A stretch of DNA of 64,000 bases from Gammaproteobacteria bacterium (GCA_963662355.1 OY759361.1:1386265-1450264), one strand, 5' to 3'; shown: positions 2,195-19,664, counted from the first letter of the stretch. Translations and numbers: made by a program. Notes: generated by a model not told the origin, from the letters alone.

Positions 2195-2423
2195 ACACCA
2201 GCATCACAACGTCTTCGTAGCTAGTAGCGTGAGCACTTGAAGCTGACTAGCACAGGTCTGGTCTAGCCCTAGGAGACCTGTGCCGAAAACTATCGTCCCA
2301 AGTTTCTCTCATAGCCTGGTACATACCCGGGGAGTTTGACACCTTGCTACCAGTTTTGTAAAACCAGCTGGAAGTATGCTGAACCAATTAGTCATTATCT
2401 TTTAACACAAAAATAATCAAACA

Positions 2424-3203: not shown

Positions 3204-4086
3204 GAGGTATCTGTTTTCCGAATTAAATACAAAGGCCTGTCCTTCATTCAAAAATGTTTGCGAAGCAGCAGATGAGAATTGCAAAAGGGCGAAAGAACAT
3301 TGCGAAGACTTATGGGGTGATTTTGCCCCACATGCTGACAAGAATTTTCTTAATCAGTTTCAGCTTCATTTTCATCAGCGTTGGTTTGAAATGTATTTGA
3401 CCGTATCATTTTTACGGGCTGGTTTTGATGTTATTCTTCATAAGCACGGGCCGGATGTTTTACTGAATCTGTTTGGTCAGCGTGTGTGGATTGAAGCTGT
3501 TTGTGCGACTCCAGGCCAAGAGGGGCACGCAGATTCTGTGCCGCCAATTAATTTCGAGAGTGTCGAACCTGTTCCAATAGAGGGATATGTGAAGCGTATA
3601 TGTAGCTCGCTGCGTGAGAAAGAGCAAAAATTCAAGCAGTACATTGAAGATGGCATTGTCAGCCGTGGAGATCTAGCTGCGATAGCAATCAACATTCGCG
3701 ATGTTCCTTTTCTATATGCACACATGGATGACACCATGAAGAGGTCATTATATGGAGTTGGGGATCCAGTTGTGACTATGGATAAAGAATCCAAAAAACT
3801 AGTAAGTACTGATCACCAAACGATTCAAACTATAAGGAAGTCATCTGGTGCACCCATCGGAGTTCAACCGTTTGTTGATGAAAGTATGCCGCACATCTCG
3901 TCGGTTCTGGTTTCTTCGGCAAATGCTGTTGGCCGGCCACCAAGACTTGGGGATGACTATATCCTGTATCCTAATCTGACCTGTACGAACTGCTGGCCCA
4001 GGTGTTTGATTCCGTTAGGTAAAGAATGGTTATTTAAGGGAAATGAAAATGAATGGGTCGGGGAAAAGACTAATCATATTCTCTAA
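3193..4086 (+). CDS. hypothetical protein, translationally coupled partner of the 2424-3203 gene
   Basis: 297-aa ORF with a double ATG start that overlaps the upstream stop. No motif recognised. Confidence 0.55.
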   Translation: MMHERYLFSELNTKACPSFKNVCEAADENCKRAKEHCEDLWGDFAPHADKNFLNQFQLHFHQRWFEMYLTVSFLRAGFDVILHKHGPDVLLNLFGQRVWIEAVCATPGQEGHADSVPPINFESVEPVPIEGYVKRICSSLREKEQKFKQYIEDGIVSRGDLAAIAINIRDVPFLYAHMDDTMKRSLYGVGDPVVTMDKESKKLVSTDHQTIQTIRKSSGAPIGVQPFVDESMPHISSVLVSSANAVGRPPRLGDDYILYPNLTCTNCWPRCLIPLGKEWLFKGNENEWVGEKTNHIL

Positions 4087-4356
4087 TTATGTCTGCCTTT
4101 GAATCCCAGTAAAAGTGGGGTGGATCAGCAGTGCATGATGCATACTCTTCGGAGCTAGGGTTGGTCGTACCGCATTGGTCTCGCGGTAAGTATGACCAAG
4201 CTGCAAATAGCAACGGGCATCACACATCTGCGGTTCTGCCGGGAAGGTGGGCTGTAATTAGTCGGTGTACCAAGAGGTGTCACCTGCAAGCTAAGGCAAT
4301 TAACTACCAATGAAAACCAAGAGCTCAAAGTTGAAATTGCCCAAGTACTCCAATCA

Positions 4357-4716
4357 TTGGATAGACAGCGCGATAAGCTAGAAAACCAAAGAATCCCCAA
4401 TGCTGTTTTGACGCAACAAGTAAAGTCTGAGCAGAGCAACAGACTCACTCGCAACTTTGGCATTACCATAGGAACAATGCTTGCCAGCAACGGGCTTCTT
4501 CGTAGTCGCACCATCATTGACGAATTTTCCTTGGCATTGATTGTGGGAGGTGCACTACTGCTTTTGGTGTCGTGGTTTAGTCCAATCAAGCGCGGAAAAA
4601 ATAACTCCCACCACTGGGAACAAAGCTTGATAGTCAATAGCGTCACAGAGTTAACTATTACTGGAGTCCTAAATCGTGGAGTGGCAAACCAGAAATGCAT
4701 TACGCTCAAGGTTTAG
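4357..4716 (+). CDS. possible small membrane protein (one predicted TM helix); weak call
   Basis: 119-aa ORF with hydrophobic segment FSLALIVGGALLLLVSWF. It competes with an antisense 184-aa low-complexity ORF. The region from 4.1 to 5.3 kb otherwise lacks convincing genes. Confidence 0.2.
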   Translation: MDRQRDKLENQRIPNAVLTQQVKSEQSNRLTRNFGITIGTMLASNGLLRSRTIIDEFSLALIVGGALLLLVSWFSPIKRGKNNSHHWEQSLIVNSVTELTITGVLNRGVANQKCITLKV

Positions 4717-5547
4717 CAACCTGTGAATATGGGGTAGTTCGACCTGATTCTAGGCCGCTATGATCAAGGGAATAGTGCCATTCCCTATTTCGATAACCTA
4801 TTCTGGTTTGGTGATGGGATTATGAAGCCTGGAGAATGGCTATTCGTTTACACGGGGAGTGGGACAGCGAACAAGATTTCAGCGACAAACGGTGTAAACG
4901 AAAGTTTTCACCTGTTCTGGTGCAAACAGACTACACTTTTTGCAGAATCAATTATAGCTCCTATCCTTTTTCGTGTTGATGCAGTGGACGTGCTTGCGCC
5001 ACCCAGCAATCTACTGCAACACAACCAGCTTCAGAATTAATAGTAGGGTCATTCGATTTCTGTGTTCAACACTAGGCCCGAAGAGTGTCAAGCCCTAAAC
5101 AGCTGGTCAAAGTAGGCCTCGTACCCGAGGTGCTAGCTACTTTTATACAAGGCTACACATTGATTCAATATGGCTTAAATTGACAATTTTATTTTGCTTG
5201 CTCATGGGTTGTCTGCATTTAAAATGCCATTGCAATAGCAGGTAGTGAATGTGGTAGCCATCACAAGGTAGTACTCAAGCAAATGTCCAACAAAGGTCGC
5301 TAAACGGTCTTGAATACAAGTAAAAGGGACTGGAGGAGCACAATTATATTGGATGTCAAAGTGATGCTAAAACACAGTGAGCAGAGTAAGTTACGATTCT
5401 TCAGGAGGAGTTCTACGAACCAGGCAGTCGGGAATCTCAAACTTTTTTTTCGCACAATTTTCAATGCTTTCGTGCTACCTTCTTTCTCCTACGAGTTGGA
5501 GTTCGGTGGGCTTGAATTTCCAATGATCTACAACGCAGGGAGATACA

Positions 5548-6405
5548 ATGACAAAGCATAGCGGGCCTATCTGCATTTCAGTAATAAACATGAAAGGTGG
5601 TGTGGGTAAAACAACTATTGCTGCATTGCTGGGACGATATGCATCTCTGCAGCGAGAACTGGATGTTCTAGCAATAGATTTGGATCCTCAAGCGAATCTT
5701 ACCCAGGCCTTTATGCGTGATCGCTATAAGGAGTTTTTAGACAACAAGCTTCCATCGATTGTGGAGCTCTTCCAAGGCCACTTGCCACCTGGCTCAAGAG
5801 GATCGTCACCATCATCGGTAGATGTGGGCGATGTTCTTGTCCGAAATACTCCACTTGGCGGTCCTAACCTGGAACTTATTCCGTCCAGATTTGATTTTTC
5901 CGACAATCTGATAGGCTCCGTTAGGCCTGATCCGAGAGTTCTCGCAAGATTTATTGTGGATGAGTTTCAGGATAAAGATATCATTTTGATTGATTGTGCT
6001 CCCACCGAATCCATTTTTACGCAAGCGGCCTATCATGCATCCCGATATATATTGGTGCCCGTGAAACCAGAGTATTTTGCCACTATAGGCTTTCCCTTAT
6101 TAAAAGATTCTTTAGATATGTTCCAACGTCGCAATCCTACACACGTAATTGACGTGGCGGGAATTGTCGTAAACAATTCAACCTATCACTACAGTGGAAA
6201 TCAAGGCGGCCCAGAAAGGTCCAGGGCTTTGTCGGAACTTACTGTGGAGGCAAGCCAAAACGATTGGAGAGTATTCAGAAAACAGATTCCCCATTCCAGA
6301 GGATTTCCAAAGATGATGAGGGGGGATTTCCGTCATCTTGGTGACGCCCCGCTGTTTTACCACTTTGCAAAGGAATTTTTTGAAACAATCCTGGGTGATG
6401 TGTAG
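5548..6405 (+). CDS. ParA/Soj/MinD-family P-loop ATPase
   Basis: Deviant Walker A INMKGGVGKTT, then DLDPQANLT, and a conserved Walker B-like IILIDCAP. Confidence 0.85.
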   Translation: MTKHSGPICISVINMKGGVGKTTIAALLGRYASLQRELDVLAIDLDPQANLTQAFMRDRYKEFLDNKLPSIVELFQGHLPPGSRGSSPSSVDVGDVLVRNTPLGGPNLELIPSRFDFSDNLIGSVRPDPRVLARFIVDEFQDKDIILIDCAPTESIFTQAAYHASRYILVPVKPEYFATIGFPLLKDSLDMFQRRNPTHVIDVAGIVVNNSTYHYSGNQGGPERSRALSELTVEASQNDWRVFRKQIPHSRGFPKMMRGDFRHLGDAPLFYHFAKEFFETILGDV

Positions 6406-6419
6406 ATGAAGGAAGTCCT

Positions 6420-7034
6420 ATGACTGAAGAAAAGGGCCTGAGCAATGTGTTGCGTGCCATTGTCCTTGAGCATGGCATCGAAAATGTTGAGCGCACATTG
6501 GGTCAAATTCGAAAATCCACGGCACGCCGTAAAAGTCGTGGTAGCCAACTCGCCCCTTCAAATCAAATCCCCAAGTCTTGTACGGGGCAACCGAAAAAAA
6601 CGAAGATCACAGCACTTGAGTATGTTTCCAAGCTAGATGTAGACCATGAGATAAAGGTGCTACTTAAAGAAGCAGCTAGTGAGTACGAAAGCAAATCGTT
6701 CTTACCAACAGTTGGAGAAATTAAAAACTTCTGTGTAATACAAGGGATAAATGTTCCCGCTTCACATTCTCGGGCAACTGCTATTCCTCGGATTTTCAAA
6801 CATCTGTCACAGTTGTCTCCGCAAGAAATACGTTCGATGCTTCAGTCTAGGGTATTTTCAGGACCGACACGACTCGCACCTATCGCCGATGCAATTAGAC
6901 GTAGCTCTGAACAAAGAGTGAGTGAAGATACTGTCGACCGAAAGGTATGCGAGCCATTACCGAACAAGAAGGAGGTGAAAGAGAAAGAAAAGGAAAAAGA
7001 TATTTTAAAGCCCTCGTCCCCTAAAAACATATGA
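6420..7034 (+). CDS. hypothetical protein downstream of ParA (candidate partner); Lys/Glu-rich C-terminus
   Basis: 204-aa ORF starting 15 nt after the ParA stop, with RBS GAAGGAAG. C-terminal KKEVKEKEKEKD. No ParB motif seen. Confidence 0.5.
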   Translation: MTEEKGLSNVLRAIVLEHGIENVERTLGQIRKSTARRKSRGSQLAPSNQIPKSCTGQPKKTKITALEYVSKLDVDHEIKVLLKEAASEYESKSFLPTVGEIKNFCVIQGINVPASHSRATAIPRIFKHLSQLSPQEIRSMLQSRVFSGPTRLAPIADAIRRSSEQRVSEDTVDRKVCEPLPNKKEVKEKEKEKDILKPSSPKNI

Positions 7035-7274
7035 GGACTAAATGGGTGTAGTAGTGTAAAGATAAATATATTGTGTACCGATACTTCCTTCAGAATCCCC
7101 CATCTCTGTTAGACTTATCTAACATGTTGGATCACAAAAAACCCCGTTATCTGATTGTAGAGACTAGGATCAGCATGCAACTTGCCACACTGAAATAGTT
7201 GTCGGTACTTCTGTCGGTATTTTCTAAAATTGGCCCAATAAAAAAGTCATATGAATTAATACGTTAGGCCTAAT

Positions 7275-7300
7275 GTTCAAATCCGGTTATGTCTCATTTG
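7275..7300 (+). repeat. copy A of a degenerate direct repeat that resembles a tRNA 3' end (GTTCAAATCCGGTTATGTCTCATTTG)
   Basis: Shares about 21 of 23 positions with copy B, plus the following ATTTG. It contains a T-loop-like TTCAAAT and an acceptor-like 3' segment. Confidence 0.45.
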
Positions 7301-7965
7301 TACGTGCCGAAAAGCCAATCCCAGACGGGAACGATCGAGGAGTAGTTTTTGTCCATGTCGTTCCAGTGGTGCCGGTCGTGTCGAATCACCCATGAGTTCA
7401 TGATCCTGAATAGGGGGTGTGGAAACACCAGGCTGGTATGTATGACGATGTTGACCCACGAGTGAATGAACGCGATGGCAAGGAACGACACGATATGCAA
7501 CGGGGCGATCAGGTACATGCTCGCGAACAGGAGTGTGAGTGCTGCAAGGGATTCAACGGGGTTAATGTACAGCCCGTCCAGGGCTTCCGGATAGCGAACT
7601 TTGTGGTGGGTCCCATGGATCCAGCACATCAGTGTTGGATGATGGAGTGAGCGGTGCATAACGTAGTACAGCAGTTCGAACAGCAGCAGGCATGCTGCAA
7701 TCTGGATTGGTATGAGCCACGCGGCTACGGGTTGTATGAGCTGGTCTGAAAATACCCACAGAAATGTCAGGTAGTACCCGAGCGATACCGACCCGCTGAG
7801 TCCGATCAGAAGATACTGCCGCTTCAGTGGCGGATACCTGATCGTGCGGGGTCGAATATGATATCTGCCCAGTCGATCGGAGCGTACGGCAAGAATGGCG
7901 GCAGTCCCAAAGATCGAAATGAAGACAAAGATGGCAGAAATACCCACAATCAGCGTGTAATCCAT
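7294..7965 (-). CDS. fatty acid hydroxylase / sterol desaturase superfamily membrane protein
   Basis: Histidine boxes HRSLHH, HGTHH and HDRHH in a polytopic hydrophobic protein. Confidence 0.8.
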   Translation of the reverse strand: MDYTLIVGISAIFVFISIFGTAAILAVRSDRLGRYHIRPRTIRYPPLKRQYLLIGLSGSVSLGYYLTFLWVFSDQLIQPVAAWLIPIQIAACLLLFELLYYVMHRSLHHPTLMCWIHGTHHKVRYPEALDGLYINPVESLAALTLLFASMYLIAPLHIVSFLAIAFIHSWVNIVIHTSLVFPHPLFRIMNSWVIRHDRHHWNDMDKNYSSIVPVWDWLFGTYK

Positions 7966-8846
7966 TGTCCCCCCATACAGTGGTTCTAGCGTACAAACGT
8001 TGGAGGATCAGGAAAATGCAGCAAGCAATTTTCTCGAGCCTGTAGCCATAGCCATTATACTACATAAAGGCTGGCGATCCTGAATCTACTCATGGGATAC
8101 GTTGCATGTTCACTATATGGTCACCCCAATGATGAACCCTATTCAGCTCTTACCGCAAAGAGAAGGCCGGGTATTTGAGTTGACATTTCAGGCTGGGACG
8201 CAAGTCATGTCGCAGGGACACTTGACCGGTAAAATCTGGGAAAAACACAGGTGTCTGTGAATGAGGGGGAATTGGTACGCTTAATCTTCGATTTGCAACG
8301 AGGGGCACCCCGTTTATGGATCAAACTCGCCCTTAAACATCTATGGGCAAGTTCACATATATTTTTTGAAAATTTGGTATTTCCATTCGAACGGAATCTT
8401 TTTCGCAGAACGTCCGAGTGGACTCGGGAAGCAGGACAAATGTCTGTTAAGCAAAATTAGTAGACATGTGATCAACCGGTGCGGGGAGCTATGAGCAGTT
8501 GTAGCATGATGAGCTGCTAGGGTATGGGGATAGTACGCCTAATGTTCGAATTCCCAAAGGGGGGTACCCCACCATAAAAGGTACTCAGCCCTGTCCATGA
8601 CTAGGCAAGCAGACATACATCTCAAAAAAAATCTGACATTTTCTGTTCAACTAGGCTTTAAAAATTATCCGAAATTTTTCGTTTTGGAACTGGCCTCATA
8701 TTGACACGCAAGGCCTATTACCAAGCTTTTTCGTGCTATGACTGGATCAGTTTACGGTGAGAAGACCACATTTTTAAAGTCTGACATATAATATAGATCA
8801 AGTTTAAGGGGGCAGGGCCGGCTTGTTTATTTTCTAGGAGAAGAAT

Positions 8847-9602
8847 ATGCCAAAATCATTATCACTAAAGCTTACTCCTTACATATTTATTGTAGGTATG
8901 ATCTTTTTATTCTTTGGTGCAAAGATGCCACCTACTATGTCATGGATGGGAATTAATTGGAGTAGCTTTCTTACTGATCTCGGGCTTTACATTGCTGTAG
9001 TAGTAGTTTTGCAATTTTATTACGACAAGCACATGAAACATGAGTTAATTTCGGAAGTTGCTGAATCGGCGCTTTCGAATTCAAATGTGGCTACATCAGG
9101 AATAAGTGATTTTGTCAATAACACAAAAAGAATTAACTATGAAACCATGCTCACTCATAGTGAAGAAATTACCGTTGGATTTTTACACAGTACTAGGTTT
9201 ATTGACGATCATGTATCTGAGCTTCGCAATAGGGTAAAAGAGGGTAAGAAAACATCTATCCTACTAGTGAATCCTGACGGACGCGTAGTCAGTTATCTAA
9301 CCAAGATTGTGCACGACAGTGATCATATTAAACCAGAAATTAAAAAAAACATTAATAAGGTAGGACAAATAAATAATGAGTCAGGTGTAAAAGAGAAAAT
9401 TACAATGAAATACCATGATGCCATTTTAAGGTATTCATTTGTTCATTCTATGGAAGGCACTTGGATTAAGATGTATAGAAATAGTCTTGGAATAGCAACA
9501 ACCCCAGGCATCTACATCAGGAATGGGTCACCGATGTATGATTTCTATAAGAAGGACATTGAAAACCTAAGAGAGGGAGCCCAAGATGTCACGTTTGGAT
9601 GA
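8847..9602 (+). CDS. hypothetical membrane-anchored protein (two N-terminal TM helices), AT-rich gene
   Basis: 251-aa ORF with strong RBS AGGAGAAG. Low GC. Overlaps the next ORF by 17 nt. Confidence 0.6.
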   Translation: MPKSLSLKLTPYIFIVGMIFLFFGAKMPPTMSWMGINWSSFLTDLGLYIAVVVVLQFYYDKHMKHELISEVAESALSNSNVATSGISDFVNNTKRINYETMLTHSEEITVGFLHSTRFIDDHVSELRNRVKEGKKTSILLVNPDGRVVSYLTKIVHDSDHIKPEIKKNINKVGQINNESGVKEKITMKYHDAILRYSFVHSMEGTWIKMYRNSLGIATTPGIYIRNGSPMYDFYKKDIENLREGAQDVTFG

Positions 9603-10023
9603 TCTTGCAAGTCAACTTGGCTATAAAGAGGCATGTGAAATTCTGCAGCAACATGTATCCGGAACTAAAGTTACTCAAGACGTGCTTACGATTGTAGTAA
9701 ACGAAGGAGTTCATCACATGCCTGAAGAATATCTTTTTGGAGAAGTCTTCTATGCGAGTGCAGGAAATTTGAACTTTTCGTCTGAAATTACAGTGTATGA
9801 GGAATATCAAAATGTACTATCAAATGTTGCTCGCAAGCTCAAAAGCAAACCATGGAAACACATATACATTGTTCCATTTGGGCCTAGCACATTAAGTATG
9901 CAAATAAAGCTATTGGTTTATAGAATTACTAGAATCGACTCTATTGATTTATTTTATTTAGGTGATGGAGAGTATTTCACTTTAGAGTTGGATCAAAGAA
10001 ATATTATTGTTTCAGTAGATTGA
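9586..10023 (+). CDS. hypothetical protein, translationally coupled to the 8847-9602 gene
   Basis: 145-aa ORF. RBS GAGAGGGAG lies inside the upstream gene's 3' end. Confidence 0.5.
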   Translation: MSRLDDLASQLGYKEACEILQQHVSGTKVTQDVLTIVVNEGVHHMPEEYLFGEVFYASAGNLNFSSEITVYEEYQNVLSNVARKLKSKPWKHIYIVPFGPSTLSMQIKLLVYRITRIDSIDLFYLGDGEYFTLELDQRNIIVSVD

Positions 10024-10131
10024 GTCGGTCTTTTATACGTAAACTTGGCGCAATAGATTTGAAGCTCCATGAATCGAGAGAAAAGCGTTTCTTTTACTAG
10101 ACCCCAGTCGTGATTTTTCAATGGCTTATCA

Positions 10132-10171
10132 TTTTTGTTGCAAATTATTTGATCTTTATCTGCAACAAAAA
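10132..10171. repeat. inverted repeat TTTTTGTTGCA-N18-TGCAACAAAAA
   Basis: Perfect 11-bp arms. Located about 110 nt downstream of the 9586-10023 gene. Candidate terminator or operator. Confidence 0.4.
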
Positions 10172-10667
10172 GGCAAGCCGCAATACTAGGTGACAACATC
10201 ATAGGTAATCTCACCAGCCAGCTACATTAAATCAATAGATAACAATGCTAGCTTACATAATCGCAAGCATTCGATTTCTTTGGGTGTCATTATGGTGTGT
10301 CGTCATTCAAGCAAGAGGCAAAATACGTCTCATTTAACGAGTGTTTGGAGAACCGTCTTGTTATTTTCTTGCCAGCATAGAGGTGATCCACAGCATCTCA
10401 CTTAGATAGACTGAAGTCATCTGGAAGCCAGTATGTCGTATCTCTACATTCCAAGCAATGTATAGAATTCATACTATGCCGATGACTTTTGTTGCGGTGT
10501 CTGACAATCATTGCAAAGCTGGCGTGAATCCTGGTGGCTGAGTACTACGTAATAGGAATGTTTGAAAACTATTGTAGATGGCTATTCGTTTCAACATGAA
10601 AAGGTAATTTCTATGTTGTGCACATTTACGCGGTAAATGGTTTGTAACTCAAGTTACAGGATAAGAG

Positions 10668-11828
10668 ATGTCTTACAGATACACTAATATTCGAATTGTT
10701 AATCCAAGTTTGGGTTTGGACAAGATTGTGTATAGACGGTTTTGGTTATGGTGGGCAGCACATGCTGCAGCAGAAGAAACTCTGCAAGGGGGGCCAATAA
10801 TTTCGGCTTGGTTAAAGTTATTTCAAACACATTTGAGTGACTCAGATGTTAGGAATTTACGTTGGCGGGACAATCTTGCAGGAAGCTCGGAGATGAGGCG
10901 GGCGTACTCTGCAATGTATGGTCGTTACTTTGGCCGTGCTTTTATAGCCAGCATGTTAGGAATAACAGATTTCGTTCCTCTTAGCTCAAAAGTTACTTCT
11001 ATAACAGGGGGAGTAACTGTAAGCCGAAAAACTAAGGGAGACATTCCTGATTGGATAGCATGGGACTCGGTAGCCAAATCTTATATTCTTGCAGAGGCAA
11101 AAGGCAGGTTGACCGGAAATGAGAAGAGTTTTTTGTACGGCATGCCTGCTTGTATTAAATCAGGTAAGGCTCAATTTGGAAGGGTAGAAGTTAGGGATTC
11201 ACACGCAAGAAAGATCAAAACGTGCAATTGGGTAGTAGCGAATCTCTGGGCTACCGAGAATCGAGGTAGAAGATCAGTTTCATTATTGTGGGACCCGGTT
11301 GAGAACGGAGAAAAACTCTTCGCTGAAGAAATACCACAACATGCAATTGCGATTCGCAGGCACCGTATAAAAAATATTGCGATGGGACTTGGGCGATCGA
11401 AGTTATTGCAGCTAGGCGCAAAGGAGACGGGGCTGACCTTACGTATATCTATAGAGCCATCGAAAGCTGGAGTGCTAGATTCTTTCACAGATGACATGTT
11501 ACTGGGGCTTTCTGAAAAGTTCGAGAGTACCAACCTTCCAGCAATTGAGAAGTCGTCTCAGGAACGACATGAAGATGTATACGTTGCTGCACTTATCACG
11601 CCTCTTGGAGTTCGCCCAATACTTGATTTATTAGATCTTGAAGCTGCACGTAATGTTCAAAGGCAGGTACGTAAGGCTAACGAAGCCGCTATGATTTATG
11701 GTCTTTCAACTAATGCACTGACGACATTGGAATACAATCAAGCGCTATGGTTGTCAGATGGTGGGATAGTTTCATCTGACGGAGCTGGCTTGTTTAATAT
11801 AAAAGAGATCGAATTTGACGAGTCATGA
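10668..11828 (+). CDS. hypothetical protein with candidate PD-(D/E)xK nuclease core
   Basis: 386-aa ORF. The motif DIPDWIAWD is followed after 13 aa by ILAEAKG, giving the PD ... ExK spacing typical of the restriction-endonuclease fold. Confidence 0.5.
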   Translation: MSYRYTNIRIVNPSLGLDKIVYRRFWLWWAAHAAAEETLQGGPIISAWLKLFQTHLSDSDVRNLRWRDNLAGSSEMRRAYSAMYGRYFGRAFIASMLGITDFVPLSSKVTSITGGVTVSRKTKGDIPDWIAWDSVAKSYILAEAKGRLTGNEKSFLYGMPACIKSGKAQFGRVEVRDSHARKIKTCNWVVANLWATENRGRRSVSLLWDPVENGEKLFAEEIPQHAIAIRRHRIKNIAMGLGRSKLLQLGAKETGLTLRISIEPSKAGVLDSFTDDMLLGLSEKFESTNLPAIEKSSQERHEDVYVAALITPLGVRPILDLLDLEAARNVQRQVRKANEAAMIYGLSTNALTTLEYNQALWLSDGGIVSSDGAGLFNIKEIEFDES

Positions 11829-12350
11829 GGTAATTTGAGCGTAGTATCTGCAACAAATTACTGAGTTATGCCTAATATCAAGCCTTTAGGTATGTGAAAA
11901 AAGGAATTAGACAGGAAAGGAGTTTATTGAAGAGCACAGATATCAGATGAAATACAGGGAAATAAGTCAGAAGCTCGCATACAGCTTAATACTTTATTTG
12001 GGTAGGACTAAACAGGTTCTGCATTTTAAAGTTGGAAGATTGACCACCTTGGCCTGAAACCGTTGTTCAGTAATTTCATAAAGGTCTGCGTACACACTCA
12101 GATAACTTGACATGTAATGTGCGAATGAGACTGTATTATGATTACTCACAAATGTGCTGACTTAAGCCAAACTGGCAACTTAGGAATATCTCTGGGTTGT
12201 GTAATCCGTTACAAAGGAGGGTAAGCCAAATAGCAATTTGGTGTAGGTTCAATTCCCGAATTATGCCGAAAAATTCGACAGTGTTTTTAGCAGTATATTT
12301 GAAATAAATTAATCTATTAAGCATTTTAAATACGATAGATTATAAATATA

Positions 12351-12377
12351 GTTCAAGTCCGGTTATGGCTCCATTTG
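12351..12377 (+). repeat. copy B of the tRNA-3'-end-like direct repeat (GTTCAAGTCCGGTTATGGCTCCATTTG)
   Basis: T-loop-like TTCAAGT, followed by CCGGT and then TATGGCTCCA. Lacks a 5' half, so it is not a complete tRNA. Confidence 0.45.
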
Positions 12378-12616
12378 AACAGTCCGAGAACGTCCGAAGA
12401 AATCTGAAAATGCCCTGTAAAGGATGACTGATTGTTCAAGGAATTCGCTGCTAAGTTCTCTCTTGGAAGGTATGCACAATTTCACCGTTTGATTGTCCAA
12501 TGAATTTCAAGGGAGTTTAAGTTGTATTATTATCAAGGTAGAAGATAAAAGAATGTATCGCTTACACTGGAAATCCAGCTTTTGAAGCACCAACACAATG
12601 ATAAAAAAAGTCTTCA

Positions 12617-13144
12617 ATGATTGTTCGAGGGTATTTTAAAGACGACGAAGATATCGGCTCCCAATGGGAACAGCATGCAGTGTATGACGAGGCACTTAGT
12701 ATCATCGTATCGAGCTGTAACCGGCACACTAATTTTGCACGATCTCTTCTGGAAGATTCCCGCCATAAGACATGGGGAACAATCAATTGCTACGATCACA
12801 GGACGCTTCAGGATGCACACGACCTTCTCGCTGCAGCATGGCGATATCAGGATGGAGGGAGTTATCGGCAGGGTAAACTACCCTTTGAAGGCGGGGATCC
12901 TTTCGATGAGGTTGAGGTGCTCTGGCTCAACTGGCTTCGCCATGAGGTAGATGGATGGACCGCTAGGCCACACTTGATCCGTTCGGTTCAGATAATTTTG
13001 TCCAATCAAAATAAGCCACTGGGGTATATGACCGAGTCGAAACTCTGCCTGGATATCTTAGACCGGTTTTCAAATATGCCGTGGGACCGTAGATTATGTG
13101 AAGCACATGAACAGGACCTGTATCAGGAAAGTGCTGTAGAGTGA
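12617..13144 (+). CDS. hypothetical protein
   Basis: 175-aa ORF with no obvious RBS and no recognised motif. Confidence 0.35.
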   Translation: MIVRGYFKDDEDIGSQWEQHAVYDEALSIIVSSCNRHTNFARSLLEDSRHKTWGTINCYDHRTLQDAHDLLAAAWRYQDGGSYRQGKLPFEGGDPFDEVEVLWLNWLRHEVDGWTARPHLIRSVQIILSNQNKPLGYMTESKLCLDILDRFSNMPWDRRLCEAHEQDLYQESAVE

Positions 13145-13386
13145 TAAAGTCAGGCTAGTAAACACTCAAAGCACGCTCAAATGCTATGTCCCGTATTGTT
13201 CTGGTGCTCCAAGAGGACTTCGAAGCATTGGTAGCCCTGAGATAGAGCACAAACAACTCACGACAGGCCACATTGTCCGATTGTGAACAAATCCAGGCGG
13301 GAAGTGATCAAAAAGGATTGATAGGCGTACGTTACGAACACGGGTAAGCCAAAATCACAATTCAAAGTAAACTCAAGCACGGTTTC

Positions 13387-14544
13387 TTGTCCGGCGTCCT
13401 CTTTGCAGCGGTGCTCGTGGCTTACTTTTTCTTTTTCTACATGCCAAGAGATCAGGATGCAAAACGCAACTCGATCAACTTTGATCAGGTTGCAATCGAC
13501 CCCTATACGCACAAGCTCCACAATTCCCTGTTTATTGCTGACTTGCATGCAGACTCCTTGCTCTGGGCTCGTGATTTAAAAAAAGGGCACGGGTATGGTC
13601 ACGTCGATATCCCTCGCATGCTGCAAGGAAATCTTGGCCTGCAGGTTTTCTCCATTGTCACCAAGTCGCCAAAAAACCTGAATTTGTTTGAAAACGATGA
13701 CCGCACGGACAACATCAAGTTACTGTCCATTGCCCAGCGCTGGCCTGTGTACACATGGAACAGCCTGTACGGACGCGCCACATACCAGTCACAAAAACTC
13801 CATGATTTGCAGGCTGCAGTACCATCTTTTCGCATCATCAAATATAAAGAGGACTTGCAGCAGTTCATCGTAGACAAGCAATCACGGAATAGACTTGCTG
13901 CCGGGATACTGAGCCTGGAAGGTGGGCATGCCTTGGAAGGTGACTTGGAGAATGTTGAAAGACTGTTTGATGCGGGAGTCAGGATCATTGGCTTTGCTCA
14001 TTTTTTCGACAACCGCCTGGGCGGATCCGCACACGGCCTCAATAAAGGAGGCATCACGGATTTCGGGCTAAAGGTATTGAAGGAAATGGAGCGTTTAAAC
14101 ATTCTTGTCGATATCGCCCATGCATCACCCGCTTTAATTGATGACATATTCACACACACTGCCCGTCCTGTTATCGCCACTCATACGGGTGTTCAAGCCA
14201 TTTGCAATCGCTCTCCAAGAAACCTCACTGACGAGCAAATCAAGCAGATTGTCGACAGCAATGGAGTCGTTGGAATCGGGTTTTGGACAGATGCGATCTG
14301 TACCTCACAGGTCAAGGGTATAGTCGATACCATCCGCTACGTCACTGACCTGGTCGGCGAAGACTATGTAGCTCTGGGTTCAGACTTCGACGGTAATGTA
14401 CAGACACCGTTTGATGCGGCCCATATGATCGTGTTGACCCAGGCTTTGCTGGATGCAGGGTTCACAGAGTCACAAATAAAGAAAGTGATGGGAGATAACG
14501 TAAGGCGCCTTTTGCTGGAAAACTTGCCTGCGAGGATGCACTAA
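13387..14544 (+). CDS. membrane dipeptidase (peptidase M19 / renal dipeptidase family)
   Basis: N-terminal hydrophobic anchor, then IADLHADSL (similar to the DGHxD box), HVDIPR, DIAHAS, and the family hallmark LGSDFDG. The start could be TTG at 13387 or ATG at 13441. Confidence 0.65.
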   Translation: MSGVLFAAVLVAYFFFFYMPRDQDAKRNSINFDQVAIDPYTHKLHNSLFIADLHADSLLWARDLKKGHGYGHVDIPRMLQGNLGLQVFSIVTKSPKNLNLFENDDRTDNIKLLSIAQRWPVYTWNSLYGRATYQSQKLHDLQAAVPSFRIIKYKEDLQQFIVDKQSRNRLAAGILSLEGGHALEGDLENVERLFDAGVRIIGFAHFFDNRLGGSAHGLNKGGITDFGLKVLKEMERLNILVDIAHASPALIDDIFTHTARPVIATHTGVQAICNRSPRNLTDEQIKQIVDSNGVVGIGFWTDAICTSQVKGIVDTIRYVTDLVGEDYVALGSDFDGNVQTPFDAAHMIVLTQALLDAGFTESQIKKVMGDNVRRLLLENLPARMH

Positions 14545-14892
14545 TATTGAGTACAGTTGTCCTGTGTGCCAGCGAGCGGACATGCAGCACCTCGAGCTCG
14601 CTGTATGCTTGCTGGTGAACACTGAGGGAGACAATGGTGTCGGAAAATGTTGGGCATACATCCCTGAATAGGGAAGCAGGTAGCATCTCATAAAATCAGG
14701 ACAATTCAGTTGAAATTTGCTATGTATAGACCCGGGTGAAGGACAGGCGATGATGAAGACAAGGTACATTATGTCGATGTTGGGTATTGCGATAACATCG
14801 ATAGCCGCAGAAAGCTGATGCGTGCTGGCCTGTTTCACAGCGTAGTTCGGATCTATGTGCTTGAGAAATAAATATCGGGTTGGAGAAAACCA

Positions 14893-15162
14893 ATGAATTC
14901 CAGTGACGCTCAACCGGTCAAGGTGACAATCTATGTTGGCGACAAGCAGGTCGAAACCCTGTCCTATTACTCCGGTGGAGAATGGAATGAGGATTCACAA
15001 CTGGATAATACCCTCACTGAATTTATTGCATACCTGAAGTATCAGCTAAAGGATTCATTGCCCACCCAGGAAATGCAGCACAAGATCATAGACAGAAAAG
15101 AATACGATGCATTGGAACATCTCGCGGCAGACGTCTTGTATGTAGTCAGGGAAGGTGAATGA
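14893..15162 (+). CDS. hypothetical small protein
   Basis: 89-aa ORF with RBS-like GGAGAAAA. Confidence 0.35.
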   Translation: MNSSDAQPVKVTIYVGDKQVETLSYYSGGEWNEDSQLDNTLTEFIAYLKYQLKDSLPTQEMQHKIIDRKEYDALEHLAADVLYVVREGE

Positions 15163-15482
15163 GTGACAGCACCCACTGCTCAATGCAACCGGAATTGAGG
15201 GAAAGCACGTGAGCGGGACAATATTCCTGCACAGGGGAGAATATTCGGCCCTGCCGACGACTAGGGTGGCATACCCGTGATTGCCTGCAATAGGTAGTTT
15301 CCCACCGCCCAGGTGGAAGCAGTCTCTGCCGTGATGCAGGGAGTAGAGGCGATTGGCCCTGACAAAAAAGATATTCAAACTGGACCTTTCCAGGCTGATA
15401 TGTTGCAATCGCATGAAACAATCTGCAAAATCTTGACCAGCAATTGTGTTGACCTCTTAAGCATTCAATCATCAATAGGGAG

Positions 15483-18053
15483 GTGACCGGTTTGGACTCT
15501 AAGTTGATCACTTCAATCCTGTCCTGTGCGTCAGGAACACTGCTCGCAGCGTTGCTGTACATGCCGGTCGGCCTGCAAGCCGAGGAGCCTGCGGAACTGT
15601 CTGTCGAGCTTCCGGAAATCAGCGTGATCGGCTCGAGACGACCGGTCCGCGCAGCGGTGGATGCACCCTCGGCGGTGGACATCATCAGTTCGGAGGACCT
15701 CAGCAACCAGGGGACGAGCCAGGTGCCCGAACTGCTGCGCAAGCTGGTGCCGTCCTACAACGTAGGCACCCAGCCGATCAGCGACGCTGCAACCTTCATC
15801 CGTCCGGCCAATTTGCGCGGCCTCGCCTCAGACCAGACGCTGGTGCTGGTGAATGGCAAGCGCAGACATCGCGCGGCGGTCATCTCATGGCTTGGCAACG
15901 GCGTCTCGGAAGGTGCCCAGGGGCCCGACATCAGCGTCATCCCGGCGATCGCGCTGAAGCGGGTCGAAGTGCTGCGTGATACCGCCTCCGCACAATACGG
16001 TTCCGATGCGATTGCGGGCGTGATCAACTTCGTGCTCAAGGACCGCCCGCAAGGCGGTATCGTCGAGGCCCAATGGGGTCAGACCTACACCGGCGACGGC
16101 GATGAATATCGGGTTGCCGGCAACCTGGGCATACCGCTTGGTACCAACGGCTTCGCCAATATCAGCGCCCAGTGGCACGAGATGTGGCCGACGGTGCGCA
16201 GTGTGCAGCGTGGCGATGCACAGGGCCTGATCGACCATGGCAACCTCGTTGTTCGCCAGCCGTACGCCCAGGTCTGGGGACAGCCTGACGTCGATGATGA
16301 CTACACCGTTTTCCTGAATTCTGGTGTGGAAGTCAGCGAGCAGGCCGAGCTCTACGCCTTCGGCAACGCTTCAGAGCGCGAGACCGAAGGCGGGTTCTTC
16401 TTCCGCAATCCAAATACCCGCAGCGGCGTGTTCATTGTGGAAAATGATCAGGGAAACTACCGCCTGCCTCTTGCCCCGGGCTGCCCGGGGTATGATGATC
16501 CTCCAGGGCGCATCCTCGTGACGGATGACAACGAGCTGTTTGACTGGACGCCGTATCCGGGGTGTTTCTTCAACGAGCGCTTCCCGGGCGGTTTCACGCC
16601 CAAGTTCGGTGCCGAAGTCAGCGACGCTTCAGGTGTGGCGGGTCTTCGCGGGGAGTTTGATTCAGGCCTGACCTATGACGCCAGCTACTCGATCGGCGAG
16701 AGCGAGGCCGAATTCACTATTCGCAACACCATCAATGCGAGCCTGGGTCTGGCGACGCCGGCGGAATTCAGTCTTGGCAAGTACACGCAGACCGAGCAGA
16801 CCCTGAGCCTGGACATGACCCGTCCGATCGAGACGACGTCTTTTGCATCGCCCCTGTACGCTGCATTCGGGGTTGAATGGCGTGAGGAGGAGTTTGAGGT
16901 CAGCGCGGGCGAAGAGGCTTCATGGGTTGACGGACTGATTCCGGATGCCGGCGTCGGCGCCAACGGTTTCTCGGGGTTCTCCCCGGTCGCCGCCGCGGGC
17001 AAGTGGGACCGTTCCAACGTCGCTGCGTATGTCGAGTTCGAGGCGGACGTCACGGATGCGCTCACCCTGGCCGTGATGGGCCGCATCGAGGACCACGAGG
17101 ATTACGACACAACCGAGGATTTCAAGCTCGGTGCAATTTTCAGGGCCACGGACAATGTCAGCCTGCGTGGTTCGGCCAGCACTGGCTTTCGCGTCCCGAC
17201 CGTGGGGCAGGAGAATGTCGCAAACGTCACAACAGCGTTTATCCTGGATTCGCAAGGCAGGAATCAGTTGACGCAGCGGGGCACGATTCCCTCGAAATGT
17301 CCGGAGGCTGCGGCAGTGGGCGCGGAGAAACTCGAAGCTGAGGAGTCCGTTACGTACACGGCGGGCTTTGGTCTGGAAATGAATTCGGTCTCGTTCACCG
17401 TGGATGCGTACCAAATCGAAGTCGATGACCGTCTCGGCCTGTCCGCGGACAAGACGCTGACCGCTGCACAGAAAGCGGCGATCGGCAAAAGCGGATGCTT
17501 CCCCGCCACCGACGTAAGCAATTTTCGCTTCTTCGGCAACGGGTTCGACACGCGCACCCGCGGGATCGATCTGGTTACGAGCCTTGACATGACGGACCGG
17601 CTGCCGCTACTGCACGGCGGCAAGACGGAGCTTGTATTCGTGGGCAACTACAACGACACCGAAGTCACCAGCCACAATTCGGAGTTCATTGGTGAGCAAC
17701 GCATCAAGCAACTGGAGGACGCGCTGCCGAAGCTGCGTTTCAACGTGACGTTGCGACATGACAGGGAACGGTGGGGTGGCTTTGCGCGCGTGAATTTCTT
17801 TGGCAGCTATGAGGAGTTCCACGCCGACAGCGCAGATTTCTTCATTGAGCCGGACGAGGAATTCACGCTGGACGCCGAGGTAAGCTACCGTCCGGCAGAC
17901 GGATTCGAACTGAGCATCGGGGCGGAGAATATCTTCGACAACTTTCCGGACAGGAACGAGTTTGCCGATGTGCTCGGTTCCAAGTATCCCGAATCCTCGC
18001 CGATGGGATTCTCGGGCGGGTTCTACTACGCCCGCGCCCGCTACCACTGGTAG
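15483..18053 (+). CDS. TonB-dependent outer-membrane receptor
   Basis: Signal peptide ending ...GLQA/EEP. Plug-domain blocks NLRGLASDQTLVLVNGKRR and IALKRVEVLRDTASAQYGSDAIAGVINFVLK. C-terminal aromatic residue ...RYHW. About 62% GC. The start could be GTG at 15483 or TTG at 15492. Confidence 0.85.
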   Translation: MTGLDSKLITSILSCASGTLLAALLYMPVGLQAEEPAELSVELPEISVIGSRRPVRAAVDAPSAVDIISSEDLSNQGTSQVPELLRKLVPSYNVGTQPISDAATFIRPANLRGLASDQTLVLVNGKRRHRAAVISWLGNGVSEGAQGPDISVIPAIALKRVEVLRDTASAQYGSDAIAGVINFVLKDRPQGGIVEAQWGQTYTGDGDEYRVAGNLGIPLGTNGFANISAQWHEMWPTVRSVQRGDAQGLIDHGNLVVRQPYAQVWGQPDVDDDYTVFLNSGVEVSEQAELYAFGNASERETEGGFFFRNPNTRSGVFIVENDQGNYRLPLAPGCPGYDDPPGRILVTDDNELFDWTPYPGCFFNERFPGGFTPKFGAEVSDASGVAGLRGEFDSGLTYDASYSIGESEAEFTIRNTINASLGLATPAEFSLGKYTQTEQTLSLDMTRPIETTSFASPLYAAFGVEWREEEFEVSAGEEASWVDGLIPDAGVGANGFSGFSPVAAAGKWDRSNVAAYVEFEADVTDALTLAVMGRIEDHEDYDTTEDFKLGAIFRATDNVSLRGSASTGFRVPTVGQENVANVTTAFILDSQGRNQLTQRGTIPSKCPEAAAVGAEKLEAEESVTYTAGFGLEMNSVSFTVDAYQIEVDDRLGLSADKTLTAAQKAAIGKSGCFPATDVSNFRFFGNGFDTRTRGIDLVTSLDMTDRLPLLHGGKTELVFVGNYNDTEVTSHNSEFIGEQRIKQLEDALPKLRFNVTLRHDRERWGGFARVNFFGSYEEFHADSADFFIEPDEEFTLDAEVSYRPADGFELSIGAENIFDNFPDRNEFADVLGSKYPESSPMGFSGGFYYARARYHW

Positions 18054-18306
18054 GTGCGCGCTGAATGCATGACCGGGTGTGCGGGGGCCAAGCACCTGAA
18101 TGCCCTGCCTTTTGAACTGAACCGGTGATCAGATGTGAAACCCCCATGGCAGGTTTGTACCAGGGGGCCATCATGAGCAAGCGGTTCGTGAGTCGGAGAA
18201 TATCAGCCTGTTACGGGTGGTCGAGGTCATGCTCAGCGGTGGCATGGGAGTGGTATGGACCTGGCGCAGTTTTGTCTTGTGGACTGGTTACTCTATGGAC
18301 TACGCT

Positions 18307-18332
18307 GTTTCAAGCCCGGTTATTCCATTTAG
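18307..18332 (+). repeat. copy C of the tRNA-3'-end-like direct repeat (GTTTCAAGCCCGGTTATTCCATTTAG)
   Basis: Shares the TTCAAG-CCGGTTAT core and the CCATTT tail with copy B. Confidence 0.35.
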
Positions 18333-18353
18333 ATTAATTGATCAGGAGAGAGT

Positions 18354-19588: not shown

Positions 19589-19664
19589 AGGCCAGTAGCT
19601 CAATTGGCAGAGCGGCGGTCTCCAAAACCGCAGGTTGGGGGTTCGATTCCCTCCTGGCCTGCCA
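19589..19664 (+). tRNA. trpT: tRNA-Trp (anticodon CCA)
   Basis: Sequence AGGCCAGTAGCTCAATTGGCAGAGCGGCGGTCTCCAAAACCGCAGGTTGGGGGTTCGATTCCCTCCTGGCCTGCCA has a cloverleaf with anticodon loop CUCCAAAAC. It closely resembles E. coli tRNA-Trp and sits in the classic position upstream of secE. Confidence 0.9.

What the first reader, a model, noticed from the sequence alone, without database searches (positions are those of the whole stretch)
7275..18332. Three degenerate direct repeats resembling a tRNA 3' end partition the accessory region into compositional blocks
Seen in the sequence: copy A at 7275-7300 (GTTCAAATCCGGTTATGTCTCATTTG), copy B at 12351-12377 (GTTCAAGTCCGGTTATGGCTCCATTTG), and copy C at 18307-18332 (GTTTCAAGCCCGGTTATTCCATTTAG) share a T-loop-like TTCAAGT, a CCGGT, and an acceptor-like 3' segment plus ATTTG. 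None has a 5' half, so they are not genes. All are in the same orientation. A to B brackets a roughly 5-kb low-GC block (hydroxylase, AT-rich gene pair, PD-(D/E)xK-like gene). B to C brackets the block containing the roughly 60% GC TonB receptor. From established knowledge, integrases that target the 3' ends of tRNA or tmRNA genes duplicate the 3' gene segment at each insertion, and tandem insertions leave arrays of such partial copies. Inference: the left 19 kb is an accretion of several integrated elements, now lacking integrases, next to a tRNA or tmRNA gene that lies beyond the left window edge.
Basis: partly seen in the sequence, partly recalled or inferred. Interest (0 to 1): 0.6.

Follow-up and report, generated by a model that had tools for sequence, protein, structure and literature searches.

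The report
Leftover tRNA-Thr ends bounding inserted islands
The repeats are leftover copies of the 3' end of a threonine tRNA gene that mark where foreign DNA, mostly anti-phage defence genes, was spliced in one piece after another; this is a well-known way for bacterial genomes to grow, seen here in an uncultured sponge-associated bacterium.

Summary
All three copies are at the stated coordinates. A and B are far beyond chance. C is borderline: 3 of 300 simulated windows match B as well.

The source gene is tRNA-Thr(GGT). In related uncultured Gammaproteobacteria this tRNA ends GGTTCAAGTCCGGTTATGGGCTCCA and is followed directly by the sequence found right of copy B. So B is a displaced 3' end of that gene (one G lost), together with the gene's usual downstream sequence.

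Six genomes about 97% identical to the window lose or gain similarity exactly at A and B. At least five different left-hand sequences join one constant right half, TTATGGCTCCATTTGAAC. This points to site-specific recombination within CCGGTTATGG.

DNA left of A encodes defence proteins (E2, SIR2, PD-T7-5-like). It ends in a paired TGTCGGTA arm also seen on an unrelated island at this site in another genome.

No integrase lies in window 1-19,588, and the intact tRNA was not reached.

Nothing varies at C: the dipeptidase-TonB block is fixed in all six relatives. B-C as an island is therefore unproven.

Verdict: a new member of a known kind, a tandem array of tRNA-targeted islands.

The parts
1..7164 (+). 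Island 1, truncated by the window edge. It carries defence cargo: E2-like protein (207-947), SIR2-like (1247-2194), PD-T7-5-like (3193-4086), a ParA-like ATPase (5548-6405) and several unknowns. No integrase.
   Evidence: PADLOC: E2 3e-75, SIR2 3e-10, PD-T7-5 3e-21. Pfam: AAA_31/CbiA for the ParA-like protein. The whole stretch left of copy A (1-7274, arm included) is 44.8% GC, with tetranucleotide correlation to core 0.67 against at least 0.85 for 5-kb core pieces. No similarity to any of the six close relatives.
7165..7274 (+). Right-end arm of island 1 (attR P-arm candidate), with two TGTCGGTA repeats at 7200-7207 and 7212-7219, about 75 nt left of the core.
   Evidence: The same GTCGGTACTTnTGTCGGTAT lies 72 nt left of the core in L005, on an island with unrelated cargo.
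7275..7300 (+). Copy A: tRNA-Thr(GGT) 3'-end fragment, an internal junction of the array. Its last bases supply the final two codons and the stop of the FA-hydroxylase gene on the minus strand.
   Evidence: Similarity to L031, L033 and the L005 contig begins at 7275/7276. The left 12 nt vary with the left-hand element, and the right half GTTATGTCTCATTTGTAC is constant.
7276..8183 (-). FA-hydroxylase (sterol desaturase family) segment; gene at 7294-7965 on the minus strand. It is shared with relatives, always attached to an A-type core.
   Evidence: Pfam FA_hydroxylase 7.6e-23. 95% identical in L031 and L033, 92% in the L005 contig. The cluster at 90% identity has 19 members, including ones on the contigs of L028, L029, L030 and L005.
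8184..12350 (+). Strain-specific 4.17-kb low-GC cargo: overlapping gene pair 8847-9602 / 9586-10023, a 386-aa gene at 10668-11828, and an IS3-type end remnant at 8711-8766. It ends in a degenerate arm (about 12255-12350).
   Evidence: Absent from L031 and L033, where a 93-nt arm replaces it. 39.6% GC, tetranucleotide correlation 0.43. No Pfam or PADLOC assignment. The arm aligns in register with the TGTCGGTA arm.
12351..12377 (+). Copy B: displaced 3' end of tRNA-Thr(GGT), T-loop to CCA plus TTTG, lacking one G of the acceptor strand.
   Evidence: B plus its right flank (window 12351-12415) is 57/66 identical to the end of the intact tRNA plus its downstream sequence in L020. Similarity with L028, L029, L031 and L033 starts at 12349-12359.
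12378..12422 (+). Trailer: the sequence that directly follows tRNA-Thr(GGT), or its pseudo-copy, in related genomes. It contains GTCCGAG-AAC-GTCCGAA.
   Evidence: Conserved in L003, L005, L007, L020, L021, L022, L028, L029, L031 and L033.
12411..13221 (+). Presence/absence segment carrying the 175-aa gene (12617-13144).
   Evidence: Present in the window, L029 and L033. Replaced by about 190 nt in L028 and L031.
13222..18255 (+). M19 dipeptidase (13387-14544), 89-aa ORF, and high-GC TonB-dependent receptor (15483-18053). Conserved in all six close relatives.
   Evidence: Pfam. About 97% nucleotide identity and the same gene order in L028-L033. GC and tetranucleotide values.
18256..18300 (+). 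Three direct TGGAC repeats (18256, 18280, 18296) just left of copy C: a possible degenerate arm.
   Evidence: Arm 1 of L033 and L036 has TGGAC at -36 and -15 from its core. This is a post-hoc observation, and the overall alignment to arm 1 is not significant.
18307..18332 (+). Copy C: the most degenerate candidate fragment, directly upstream of the DsrE-like gene (18354-18854). Its status is uncertain.
   Evidence: 3/300. Present with only point substitutions in all six relatives. Absent upstream of DsrE-like orthologues in other genera.
19589..19664 (+). tRNA-Trp(CCA), followed by secE, nusG and rplK: the conserved right-hand neighbour of the variable interval. It is not the source of the repeats.

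Best explanation
Copies A and B are att-site cores: fragments of the 3' part of tRNA-Thr(GGT), from the T-loop to just past CCA. They were duplicated when integrative elements inserted one after another at this gene, or at a dead duplicate of its 3' end.

Each insertion by a tyrosine-type integrase recombines an element-borne core with the chromosomal core, somewhere within CCGGTTATGG (tRNA positions about 61-71). Each junction therefore carries an element-specific left part (arm plus the first ~12 nt of the core) and an inherited right part.

Repeated insertions built a tandem array. From left to right it reads: an intact tRNA off-window (inferred), island 1 (defence genes), copy A, the FA-hydroxylase segment plus a 4.17-kb cargo, copy B, then the tRNA's usual downstream sequence.

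The elements in the window have no integrase. They are either decayed or depend on one encoded elsewhere.

Shown: the identity of the fragments, the junction behaviour in near-identical strains, the shared arm, and the foreign defence-rich content.

Inferred: the recombinase, the position of the intact tRNA, and the order of events.

Copy C may be the oldest, most decayed junction of the same array (I put this at roughly even odds), but nothing varies there today.
For: 1. Source gene. A scan of 185,579 species genomes for GTTCAANTCCGGTTATGNCTC gave 7 loci.
- Three loci (L001, L003, L007) have the motif 10-17 nt behind an intact tRNA-Thr(GGT), as a head-to-tail pseudo-copy.
- One (L005) is an island end.
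- Three are unrelated chance hits.
- In L020 and L021 the intact gene ends ...GGTTCAAGTCCGGTTATGGGCTCCA and runs straight into TTTGAACAGTCC..GAACGTCC, the flank of copy B (57/66 identity).

2. Junction behaviour. Six relatives are about 97% identical over window 12.35-22 kb.
- Similarity starts at 12349-12359 in L028, L029, L031 and L033.
- A second block, 7276-8183, starts at the first T of copy A in L031 and L033.
- At least five different left-hand sequences (window, L005, L033/L036, L028, L034) meet the same TTATGGCTCCA(T/C)TTGAAC plus trailer.
- In L034 an 0.85-kb MPAB_Lcp_cat block is flanked by an 11-nt CCGGTTATGGC duplication.

3. Arms. The left side of copy A has the same paired (T)GTCGGTA sites, at the same distance, as the L005 island with different cargo. 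Both also share the core variant TTCAAAT. L033, L036 and L034 share another ~93-nt arm.

4. Content. Window island 1 carries E2, SIR2 and PD-T7-5-like genes. Relatives carry CBASS-type SMODS/HORMA, TIR, GmrSD, Mrr, type I RM, KAP NTPase, PIN-TPR-GreABC and SIR2 at the same site. Composition is atypical.

5. Not dispersed. There are no other copies in the window. Metagenome and viral scans gave only chance hits.

6. Precedent. Displaced tDNA fragments mark island ends, and tandem arrays are catalogued (PMC4383910). Partial tRNAs between successive and degenerated elements are described in Prochlorococcus islands (bioRxiv 10.1101/2020.12.28.424599).
Against: No integrase is present. Pfam on all large ORFs from 1 to 19.5 kb found none. 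tblastn with three integrases taken from related loci gave no significant match anywhere in the window.

The intact tRNA-Thr(GGT) was not observed in the window's own lineage. 10 kb left of copy A in L042 holds only more defence genes.

In the L005 contig the trailer-bearing copy lies to the left of the FA-hydroxylase copy, the opposite order to the window. A simple 'newest next to the tRNA, native flank last' model is therefore incomplete. Either blocks move between cores, or the trailer is carried by elements rather than being native.

Relatives L020 and L021 have variable defence genes after the trailer with no further tRNA fragment within 9.5 kb. Some of the variability at this site therefore does not need the repeats.

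Copy C shows no structural variation.
Confidence: 0.85

Rival explanations
1. The repeats are relics of old integrations. Present-day differences between strains arise by homologous recombination or deletion between conserved flanks (FA-hydroxylase segment, trailer, M19 block), as in integrase-free 'core defence hotspots', not by ongoing site-specific recombination.
For: No integrase is present in the window. Defence genes vary after the trailer in L020 and L021 without extra repeats. The 175-aa segment is a plain indel with no core at its ends. IS3-type remnants lie inside the islands.
Against: Breakpoints fall within the same ~12 nt of the core for at least five unrelated left-hand sequences. 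The left-hand core halves are tRNA-like but element-specific. The same arm is found on islands with unrelated cargo. An 11-nt core duplication flanks the MPAB block.
Confidence: 0.25
2. Copy C is a chance resemblance, so the array ends at B. The trailer is the native flank, and the dipeptidase-TonB-DsrE region is ordinary chromosome in which the TonB gene is an old, separate acquisition.
For: Only 1% significance. There is no structural variation at C in six relatives. The trailer directly follows the intact tRNA in L020 and L021. 13.2-15.5 kb is compositionally core-like. No flank similarity extends beyond the core.
Against: C is on the same strand and intergenic, and it lies inside the expected tRNA-Thr to tRNA-Trp interval. 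It is absent upstream of DsrE-like orthologues in other genera. Three TGGAC repeats sit just left of it, like the arm of L033 and L036. In L005 the trailer is followed by another island that ends at a core, so the trailer need not be terminal.
Confidence: 0.4
3. The repeats are a dispersed REP- or MITE-like element, or a regulatory motif, unrelated to tRNA integration.
For: The repeats are short, intergenic and in one orientation. Copy B can form an 8-bp stem (GTTCAAGT/ATTTGAAC, read from the sequence).
Against: There are only three copies in 64 kb, all within the variable interval. Across 185,579 species genomes the 21-mer occurs only at the tRNA-Thr(GGT) site of this clade, plus about as many chance hits as expected (my estimate of the expectation is about 4). 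There are no Rfam hits. The sequence is collinear with the real tRNA gene end.
Confidence: 0.02

Closest known systems
tRNA/tmRNA-targeted genomic islands and their tandem arrays, as catalogued by Islander (PMC4383910; sublocation classes of Williams 2002, cited there)
   Same: A displaced 3' tDNA fragment, in the orientation of the gene, marks island ends. The core lies in the T-stem/acceptor region. The cargo is foreign. Several elements are stacked at one tDNA.
   Different: Islander accepts a tandem member only if it has its own integrase, and here no member in view has one. The intact tDNA is outside the window. In some relatives the target appears to be, or to include, a dead head-to-tail duplicate of the tRNA 3' end.
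Island building by tycheposons in Prochlorococcus (bioRxiv 10.1101/2020.12.28.424599)
   Same: Islands are seeded at a tRNA. Successive elements are separated only by partial tRNA copies. Degenerate elements and extra partial tRNAs are scattered in the island. Cargo includes defence genes. Older material is pushed away from the tRNA.
   Different: The host (a sponge-associated gammaproteobacterium) and the tRNA differ. No tycheposon-type recombinase or replication module was seen. The only recombinase near such arrays in relatives is a 288-aa PF12835/PF12834 protein.
CIMEs and accretion of integrative elements in streptococci (review PMC5704250)
   Same: Blocks are flanked by att sites but lack recombination genes, and they sit in tandem with other elements at one site. 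Mobilisation in trans is plausible.
   Different: No conjugation or mobilisation genes were seen. The phylum and the target differ. Mobility was not tested.
Defence-island hotspots between core genes (PMC10121019, PMC10250203)
   Same: One chromosomal position holds different defence systems in different strains.
   Different: Here the junctions are tRNA-derived cores with element-specific arms, rather than only conserved flanking genes.
Integron cassette arrays (own knowledge)
   Same: In L033, L036 and L034, single-gene blocks (FA hydroxylase, MPAB) are each followed by a ~120-nt repeat unit in one orientation.
   Different: The core is not GTTRRRY/RYYYAAC. No IntI, attI or Pc is present. 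The repeat is tRNA-derived.

Membership tests
tDNA-integrated genomic island array (Islander definition) | A fragment of the target tDNA's 3' part, in the same orientation as the gene, at the distal island end | tested here: met
   Copy B plus its right flank (window 12351-12415) is 57/66 identical to the tRNA-Thr(GGT) 3' end plus downstream sequence of L020. All copies are on the + strand.
tDNA-integrated genomic island array (Islander definition) | An intact, regenerated tDNA at the proximal end | not testable with these tools
   No tRNA-Thr lies in the window. It is not reached within 10 kb left of copy A in L042. It is seen only in a sister clade.
tDNA-integrated genomic island array (Islander definition) | A tyrosine integrase gene in each island | tested here: not met
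   There is no integrase domain in ORFs from 1 to 19.5 kb and no tblastn match. The left part of island 1 is off-window.
tDNA-integrated genomic island array (Islander definition) | Presence/absence between strains, with breakpoints at the fragment | tested here: met
   Met for A and B. Not met for C.
tDNA-integrated genomic island array (Islander definition) | Foreign composition or cargo | tested here: met
CIME-type integrase-less element | Flanked by two att cores, with no recombinase of its own | tested here: met
   Block 7275-12377 lies between A and B and has no integrase.
CIME-type integrase-less element | Excision or mobilisation by an integrase supplied in trans | not testable with these tools
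   This needs reads or PCR for circle and empty-site junctions. As indirect support, the FA-hydroxylase block occupies a different array position in L005.
Integron cassette array | attC sites with R''/R' cores (RYYYAAC ... GTTRRRY), plus IntI and attI | tested here: not met
   The core GTTCAAG... does not fit GTTRRRY (read from the sequence). There is no integron integrase.
REP/MITE-like dispersed repeat | Many copies at unrelated loci | tested here: not met
tmRNA-targeted island | The fragment matches the ssrA 3' end | tested here: not met
   The fragment is collinear with tRNA-Thr(GGT). ARAGORN finds no tmRNA in the window or in the loci scanned.

The most novel reading that the evidence does not exclude
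The locus is not just a graveyard of islands. It could be a working, integron-like exchange platform anchored on a dead duplicate of the tRNA-Thr(GGT) 3' end. Short arm-plus-core units (~120 nt) would let a small trans-acting tyrosine recombinase excise and re-insert single-gene and multi-gene defence cassettes at any core of the array. A candidate recombinase is the 288-aa PF12835/PF12834 protein found inside these arrays in L005, L021 and L022. This would explain three things: the different cassette order in L005, the single-gene FA-hydroxylase and MPAB blocks, and the many arm types on one constant right half.
Probability: 0.15. Interest if true: 0.65.

Novelty: new member of a known kind. 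Interest (0 to 1): 0.33.

Why it matters
The finding pins down the variable region upstream of the secE-rpoBC cluster in an uncultured sponge-associated gammaproteobacterium. Contig MKWU01008685 of the Aplysina aerophoba metagenome carries the same 139-aa protein (PMC5099237, PMC5649159).

That region is a tRNA-Thr(GGT)-seeded defence-island array. It gives exact junction sequences with which island gain and loss can be tracked in metagenomes. It also adds a concrete mechanism to the known enrichment of defence genes in sponge symbionts.

It does not reveal a new kind of element. It does flag several uncharacterised genes (8847-10023, 10668-11828) as candidate defence cargo.

Tried and rejected
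1. Rfam on 1-22 kb found only tRNA-Trp.

2. Exact look-ups of the window's SIR2-like and FA-hydroxylase proteins found nothing, so the source genome itself is not in the collection.

3. The metagenome scan with the 21-mer gave 8 loci, none related. Viral scans with the arm, the core and the trailer gave chance coding hits or nothing.

4. I tested whether copy C is a conserved 5' element of the DsrE-like gene. Orthologue upstream regions (L008-L011) are not significantly similar once the RBS and ATG are removed (191/500 shuffles reach the score), and they do not match the core. Rejected.

5. I tested whether the similarity of A, B and C extends into their right flanks. It does not (455-800 of 1000 shuffles reach the score).

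6. A 12-nt core match inside the L022 integrase gene looked like an attP. The L021 orthologue differs there, so it is coding-sequence coincidence.

7. Aligning C's left flank to arm 1 gave nothing significant. Only the TGGAC repeats are shared.

8. I tried to reach the intact tRNA in the window's lineage through relatives. All 12 look-ups are used, and it is still at least 10 kb away.

9. The tmRNA origin was considered from the GCTCCA ending. It is rejected by collinearity with tRNA-Thr.

Full report
**1. Observation**

The three sequences are exactly as reported, all on the + strand: A 7275-7300, B 12351-12377 and C 18307-18332.

- A and B align over 27 columns with two mismatches and one gap (local score 37). 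B and C score 30.
- In 300 simulated 64-kb sequences with the window's dinucleotide transitions, the best match to B on either strand averaged 22.4 (SD 2.1). None exceeded 30 and three reached 30.
- A and B are therefore real repeats. C is only about 1% significant.
- The next best real hits (24 and 22) lie in the core-gene region beyond 19.6 kb.
- The window's single tRNA, tRNA-Trp at 19589-19664, has a different 3' end. Rfam finds nothing at the copies.

**2. Which gene the fragments come from**

I scanned one genome from each of 185,579 species for GTTCAANTCCGGTTATGNCTC. This returned seven loci.

- Three are unrelated (L002, L004, L006). My own estimate is that about four chance hits are expected for a pattern of this length.
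- In L001, L003 and L007 (uncultured Thiotrichales/Gammaproteobacteria) the motif sits 10-17 nt behind an intact tRNA-Thr(GGT). That gene is the last of a Thr-Tyr-Gly-Thr cluster. The motif forms a head-to-tail pseudo-copy of the gene's last 34-41 nt.
- I fetched more members of this clade through a small protein encoded inside the tRNA cluster. In L020 and L021 the intact gene reads GCCCATA...GGTTCAAGTCCGGTTATGGGCTCCA. It is followed at once by TTTGAACAGTCC..GAACGTCC.AA.
- Window 12351-12415 is 57/66 identical to that stretch of L020.
- Copy B is therefore the 3' end of tRNA-Thr(GGT), from G53 to CCA, with one G of the acceptor strand deleted. It is still attached to the sequence that normally trails the gene.
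- The same one-base deletion marks the pseudo-copies of L001, L003 and L007 and the L005 copy.
- The origin is not tmRNA.

**3. Strain comparison**

The ribosomal protein L11 and the 139-aa protein of the window are identical in several public assemblies. This gave six loci that are about 97% identical to window 12.35-22 kb (L028-L033, extended as L034-L036 and L042). One of these contigs comes from the Aplysina aerophoba sponge metagenome (PMC5099237).

*Where similarity starts*
- Similarity to the window starts at 12352 (L033, L031), 12359 (L029) and 12349 (L028), that is, at or within copy B.
- In L031 and L033 a second block, 7276-8183, starts at the first T of copy A. The L005 contig has the same block starting at 7275.

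*What lies left of the cores*
- Window B has an AT-rich degenerate arm preceded by 4.17 kb of strain-specific cargo.
- L033 and L036 have a 93-nt arm and no cargo.
- L028 has a GC-rich hairpin and ATTCGAATCCTA.
- L034 has an 0.85-kb MPAB_Lcp_cat block flanked by an 11-nt CCGGTTATGGC duplication.
- L005 has a 12-kb-plus island with NERD, HEPN and methylase genes.

*What stays constant*
- All these left sides join the same TTATGGCTCCA(T/C)TTGAAC plus trailer.
- Likewise, four different left sides join GTTATGTC(TC)ATTT... of copy A plus the FA-hydroxylase gene.
- Variation inside the core is confined to its first ~12 nt, which travel with the left-hand element.
- This is the pattern expected from site-specific recombination, with strand exchange in or just before CCGGTTATGG (T-stem 3' strand and acceptor 3' strand).

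**4. Arms**

- About 75 nt left of copy A lie two TGTCGGTA repeats, 12 nt apart (7200-7219). This 8-mer occurs only once more in the window.
- L005 has GTCGGTACTTtTGTCGGTAT 72 nt left of its core, on an island with unrelated genes. It also shares the T-loop variant TTCAAAT with copy A.
- I read these repeats as arm-type binding sites of one element family. This is inference.
- The left side of B aligns in register with a degraded version of the same arm.
- L033, L036 and L034 share a different arm.

**5. Content and composition**

- Left of A the window encodes an E2-like protein (PADLOC 3e-75), a SIR2-like protein, a PD-T7-5-like protein and a ParA-like ATPase.
- At the same site relatives carry SMODS/HORMA/AAA (CBASS-like), TIR, GmrSD, Mrr, type I RM, KAP NTPase, PIN-TPR-GreABC, SIR2 and a DUF6361/PLD/helicase set.
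- Island 1 and the 4.17-kb cargo are compositionally atypical (44.8% and 39.6% GC; tetranucleotide correlation 0.67 and 0.43). Same-sized core pieces give 0.82-0.89.
- No integrase is present in 1-19.5 kb.
- Two fragments of an IS3-type end lie inside the islands at 1106-1224 and 8711-8766.

**6. Copy C and the B-C block**

*Against C as a boundary*
- The dipeptidase, 89-aa ORF, TonB receptor, DsrE-like gene, 139-aa gene, tRNA-Trp and secE stretch is syntenic and about 97% identical in all six relatives.
- C differs among them only by point substitutions. There is therefore no evidence that B-C behaves as a unit that comes and goes.
- The block is not compositionally uniform. 13.2-15.5 kb is core-like (0.79). 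The TonB gene is 60.8% GC and very atypical (0.20).

*For C as an old junction*
- C is on the right strand and intergenic.
- It is absent upstream of DsrE-like orthologues in other genera.
- It is preceded by three TGGAC repeats that resemble the two in the L033/L036 arm (post hoc).
- In the L005 contig the trailer-bearing core is followed by an 11-kb defence island that ends at an A-type core plus FA hydroxylase. This is the reverse of the window's order.

That last arrangement shows that blocks can sit at different cores. It leaves open whether the 'trailer' is the native flank (C would then be chance) or an element-borne arm (C would then be the oldest junction). I cannot decide between these.

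**7. Where the tRNA is**

- The fragments are 3' parts on the + strand, so the intact gene should lie to the left.
- The window's right side (tRNA-Trp, secE, nusG, rplKAJL, rpoBC) is the classical neighbour of thrU-tyrU-glyT-thrT-tufB in E. coli (established knowledge).
- L020 and L021 show birA and coaX upstream of the tRNA cluster.
- The whole stretch of at least 19.5 kb is therefore most simply the expanded thrT-to-tRNA-Trp interval.
- The gene itself was not reached. 10 kb left of copy A in L042 holds only more defence genes.

**8. Comparison with known systems**

- Displaced tDNA fragments as island ends, T-stem-region att sites and tandem arrays are standard. Islander lists 3,919 islands, with 125 tandems of two or more and 4 of three or more (PMC4383910).
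- Partial tRNAs between successive and degenerate elements, with older material pushed outward, are described for Prochlorococcus islands.
- Integrase-less att-flanked elements in accretion are known as CIMEs (PMC5704250).
- The locus fails the integron and REP definitions.
- It is a new member of a known kind.
- The B-C claim is unproven, and the tRNA's position is still inferred.

Noticed in passing
window 1106-1224 (+) and 8711-8766 (-): A 56-nt inverted repeat (77% complementary; the repeat finder I1). One arm (window 1106-1224) is 78% identical over 121 nt to a piece of the L005 contig that runs into a truncated IS3-type orfA start (HTH_Tnp_1, 2e-7). These look like solo IS-end remnants inside the islands.
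   Followed up: partly
window 15483-18053: The TonB-dependent receptor gene is 60.8% GC, against 48.8% for the core, with tetranucleotide correlation 0.20. Yet it is fixed and about 97% identical in six relatives. It is an old foreign gene whose composition has not drifted toward the host's.
   Followed up: partly
window 12411-13221: The 175-aa gene of unknown function is a presence/absence polymorphism. It is present in the window, L029 and L033, and replaced by about 190 nt in L028 and L031. No tRNA-like core sits at its ends.
   Followed up: partly
window 8847-10023 and 10668-11828: An overlapping AT-rich gene pair (251 aa, with predicted N-terminal membrane segments judged by eye, plus 145 aa) and a 386-aa gene have no Pfam or PADLOC hits. 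They sit in the strain-specific cargo of a defence hotspot and are candidate uncharacterised defence genes.
   Followed up: no
window 18256-18300: Three direct TGGAC repeats lie immediately left of copy C. The 93-nt arm of L033 and L036 has two TGGAC in the same orientation at a similar distance from its core.
   Followed up: partly
L001 4451-4494; L003 5288-5324 (-); L007 5037-5073; L022 11247-11290: An intact tRNA-Thr(GGT) is followed head-to-tail, with no spacer, by a pseudo-copy of its last 34-41 nt. L001, L003 and L007 also changed acceptor pair 6:67 from T-A to C-G in the live gene, while the pseudo-copy keeps the old A. The origin of this exact tandem duplication is unexplained.
   Followed up: partly
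L043 8305-9171 (-); L021 16270-17136; L022 14204-15070: A 288-aa tyrosine recombinase (PF12835/PF12834; the L021 and L022 copies are 82% identical) lies inside the defence arrays of three genomes. It is preceded by a conserved ~500-nt region with palindromic CTGTCCAyCTTCAA...CAGG motifs. In L005 it interrupts the arm next to the FA-hydroxylase block.
   Followed up: no
L028 about 2330-2375; L030 about 2630-2660: A GC-rich hairpin, GTCAAGCCCC-N14-GGGGCTTGAC, is seen whole in L028 just left of the junction; its 3' half (CCTGGTACATAC...GGGGCTTGACA) recurs in L030. It may be a terminator or a REP-like end of another element.
   Followed up: no
L022 1-5845: A P4-type integrase, VapE-like primase, HNH and capsid genes (satellite-like element) lie upstream of the tRNA cluster. 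ARAGORN finds no tRNA-Thr(TGT) in L022, although L020, L021, L001 and L007 have one upstream of tRNA-Tyr.
   Followed up: no
window 1-947: The window opens inside a gene whose last ~68 codons end at about 204, directly followed by the E2-like gene (207-947). This is probably a ubiquitin-like-conjugation type defence operon cut by the window edge.
   Followed up: no
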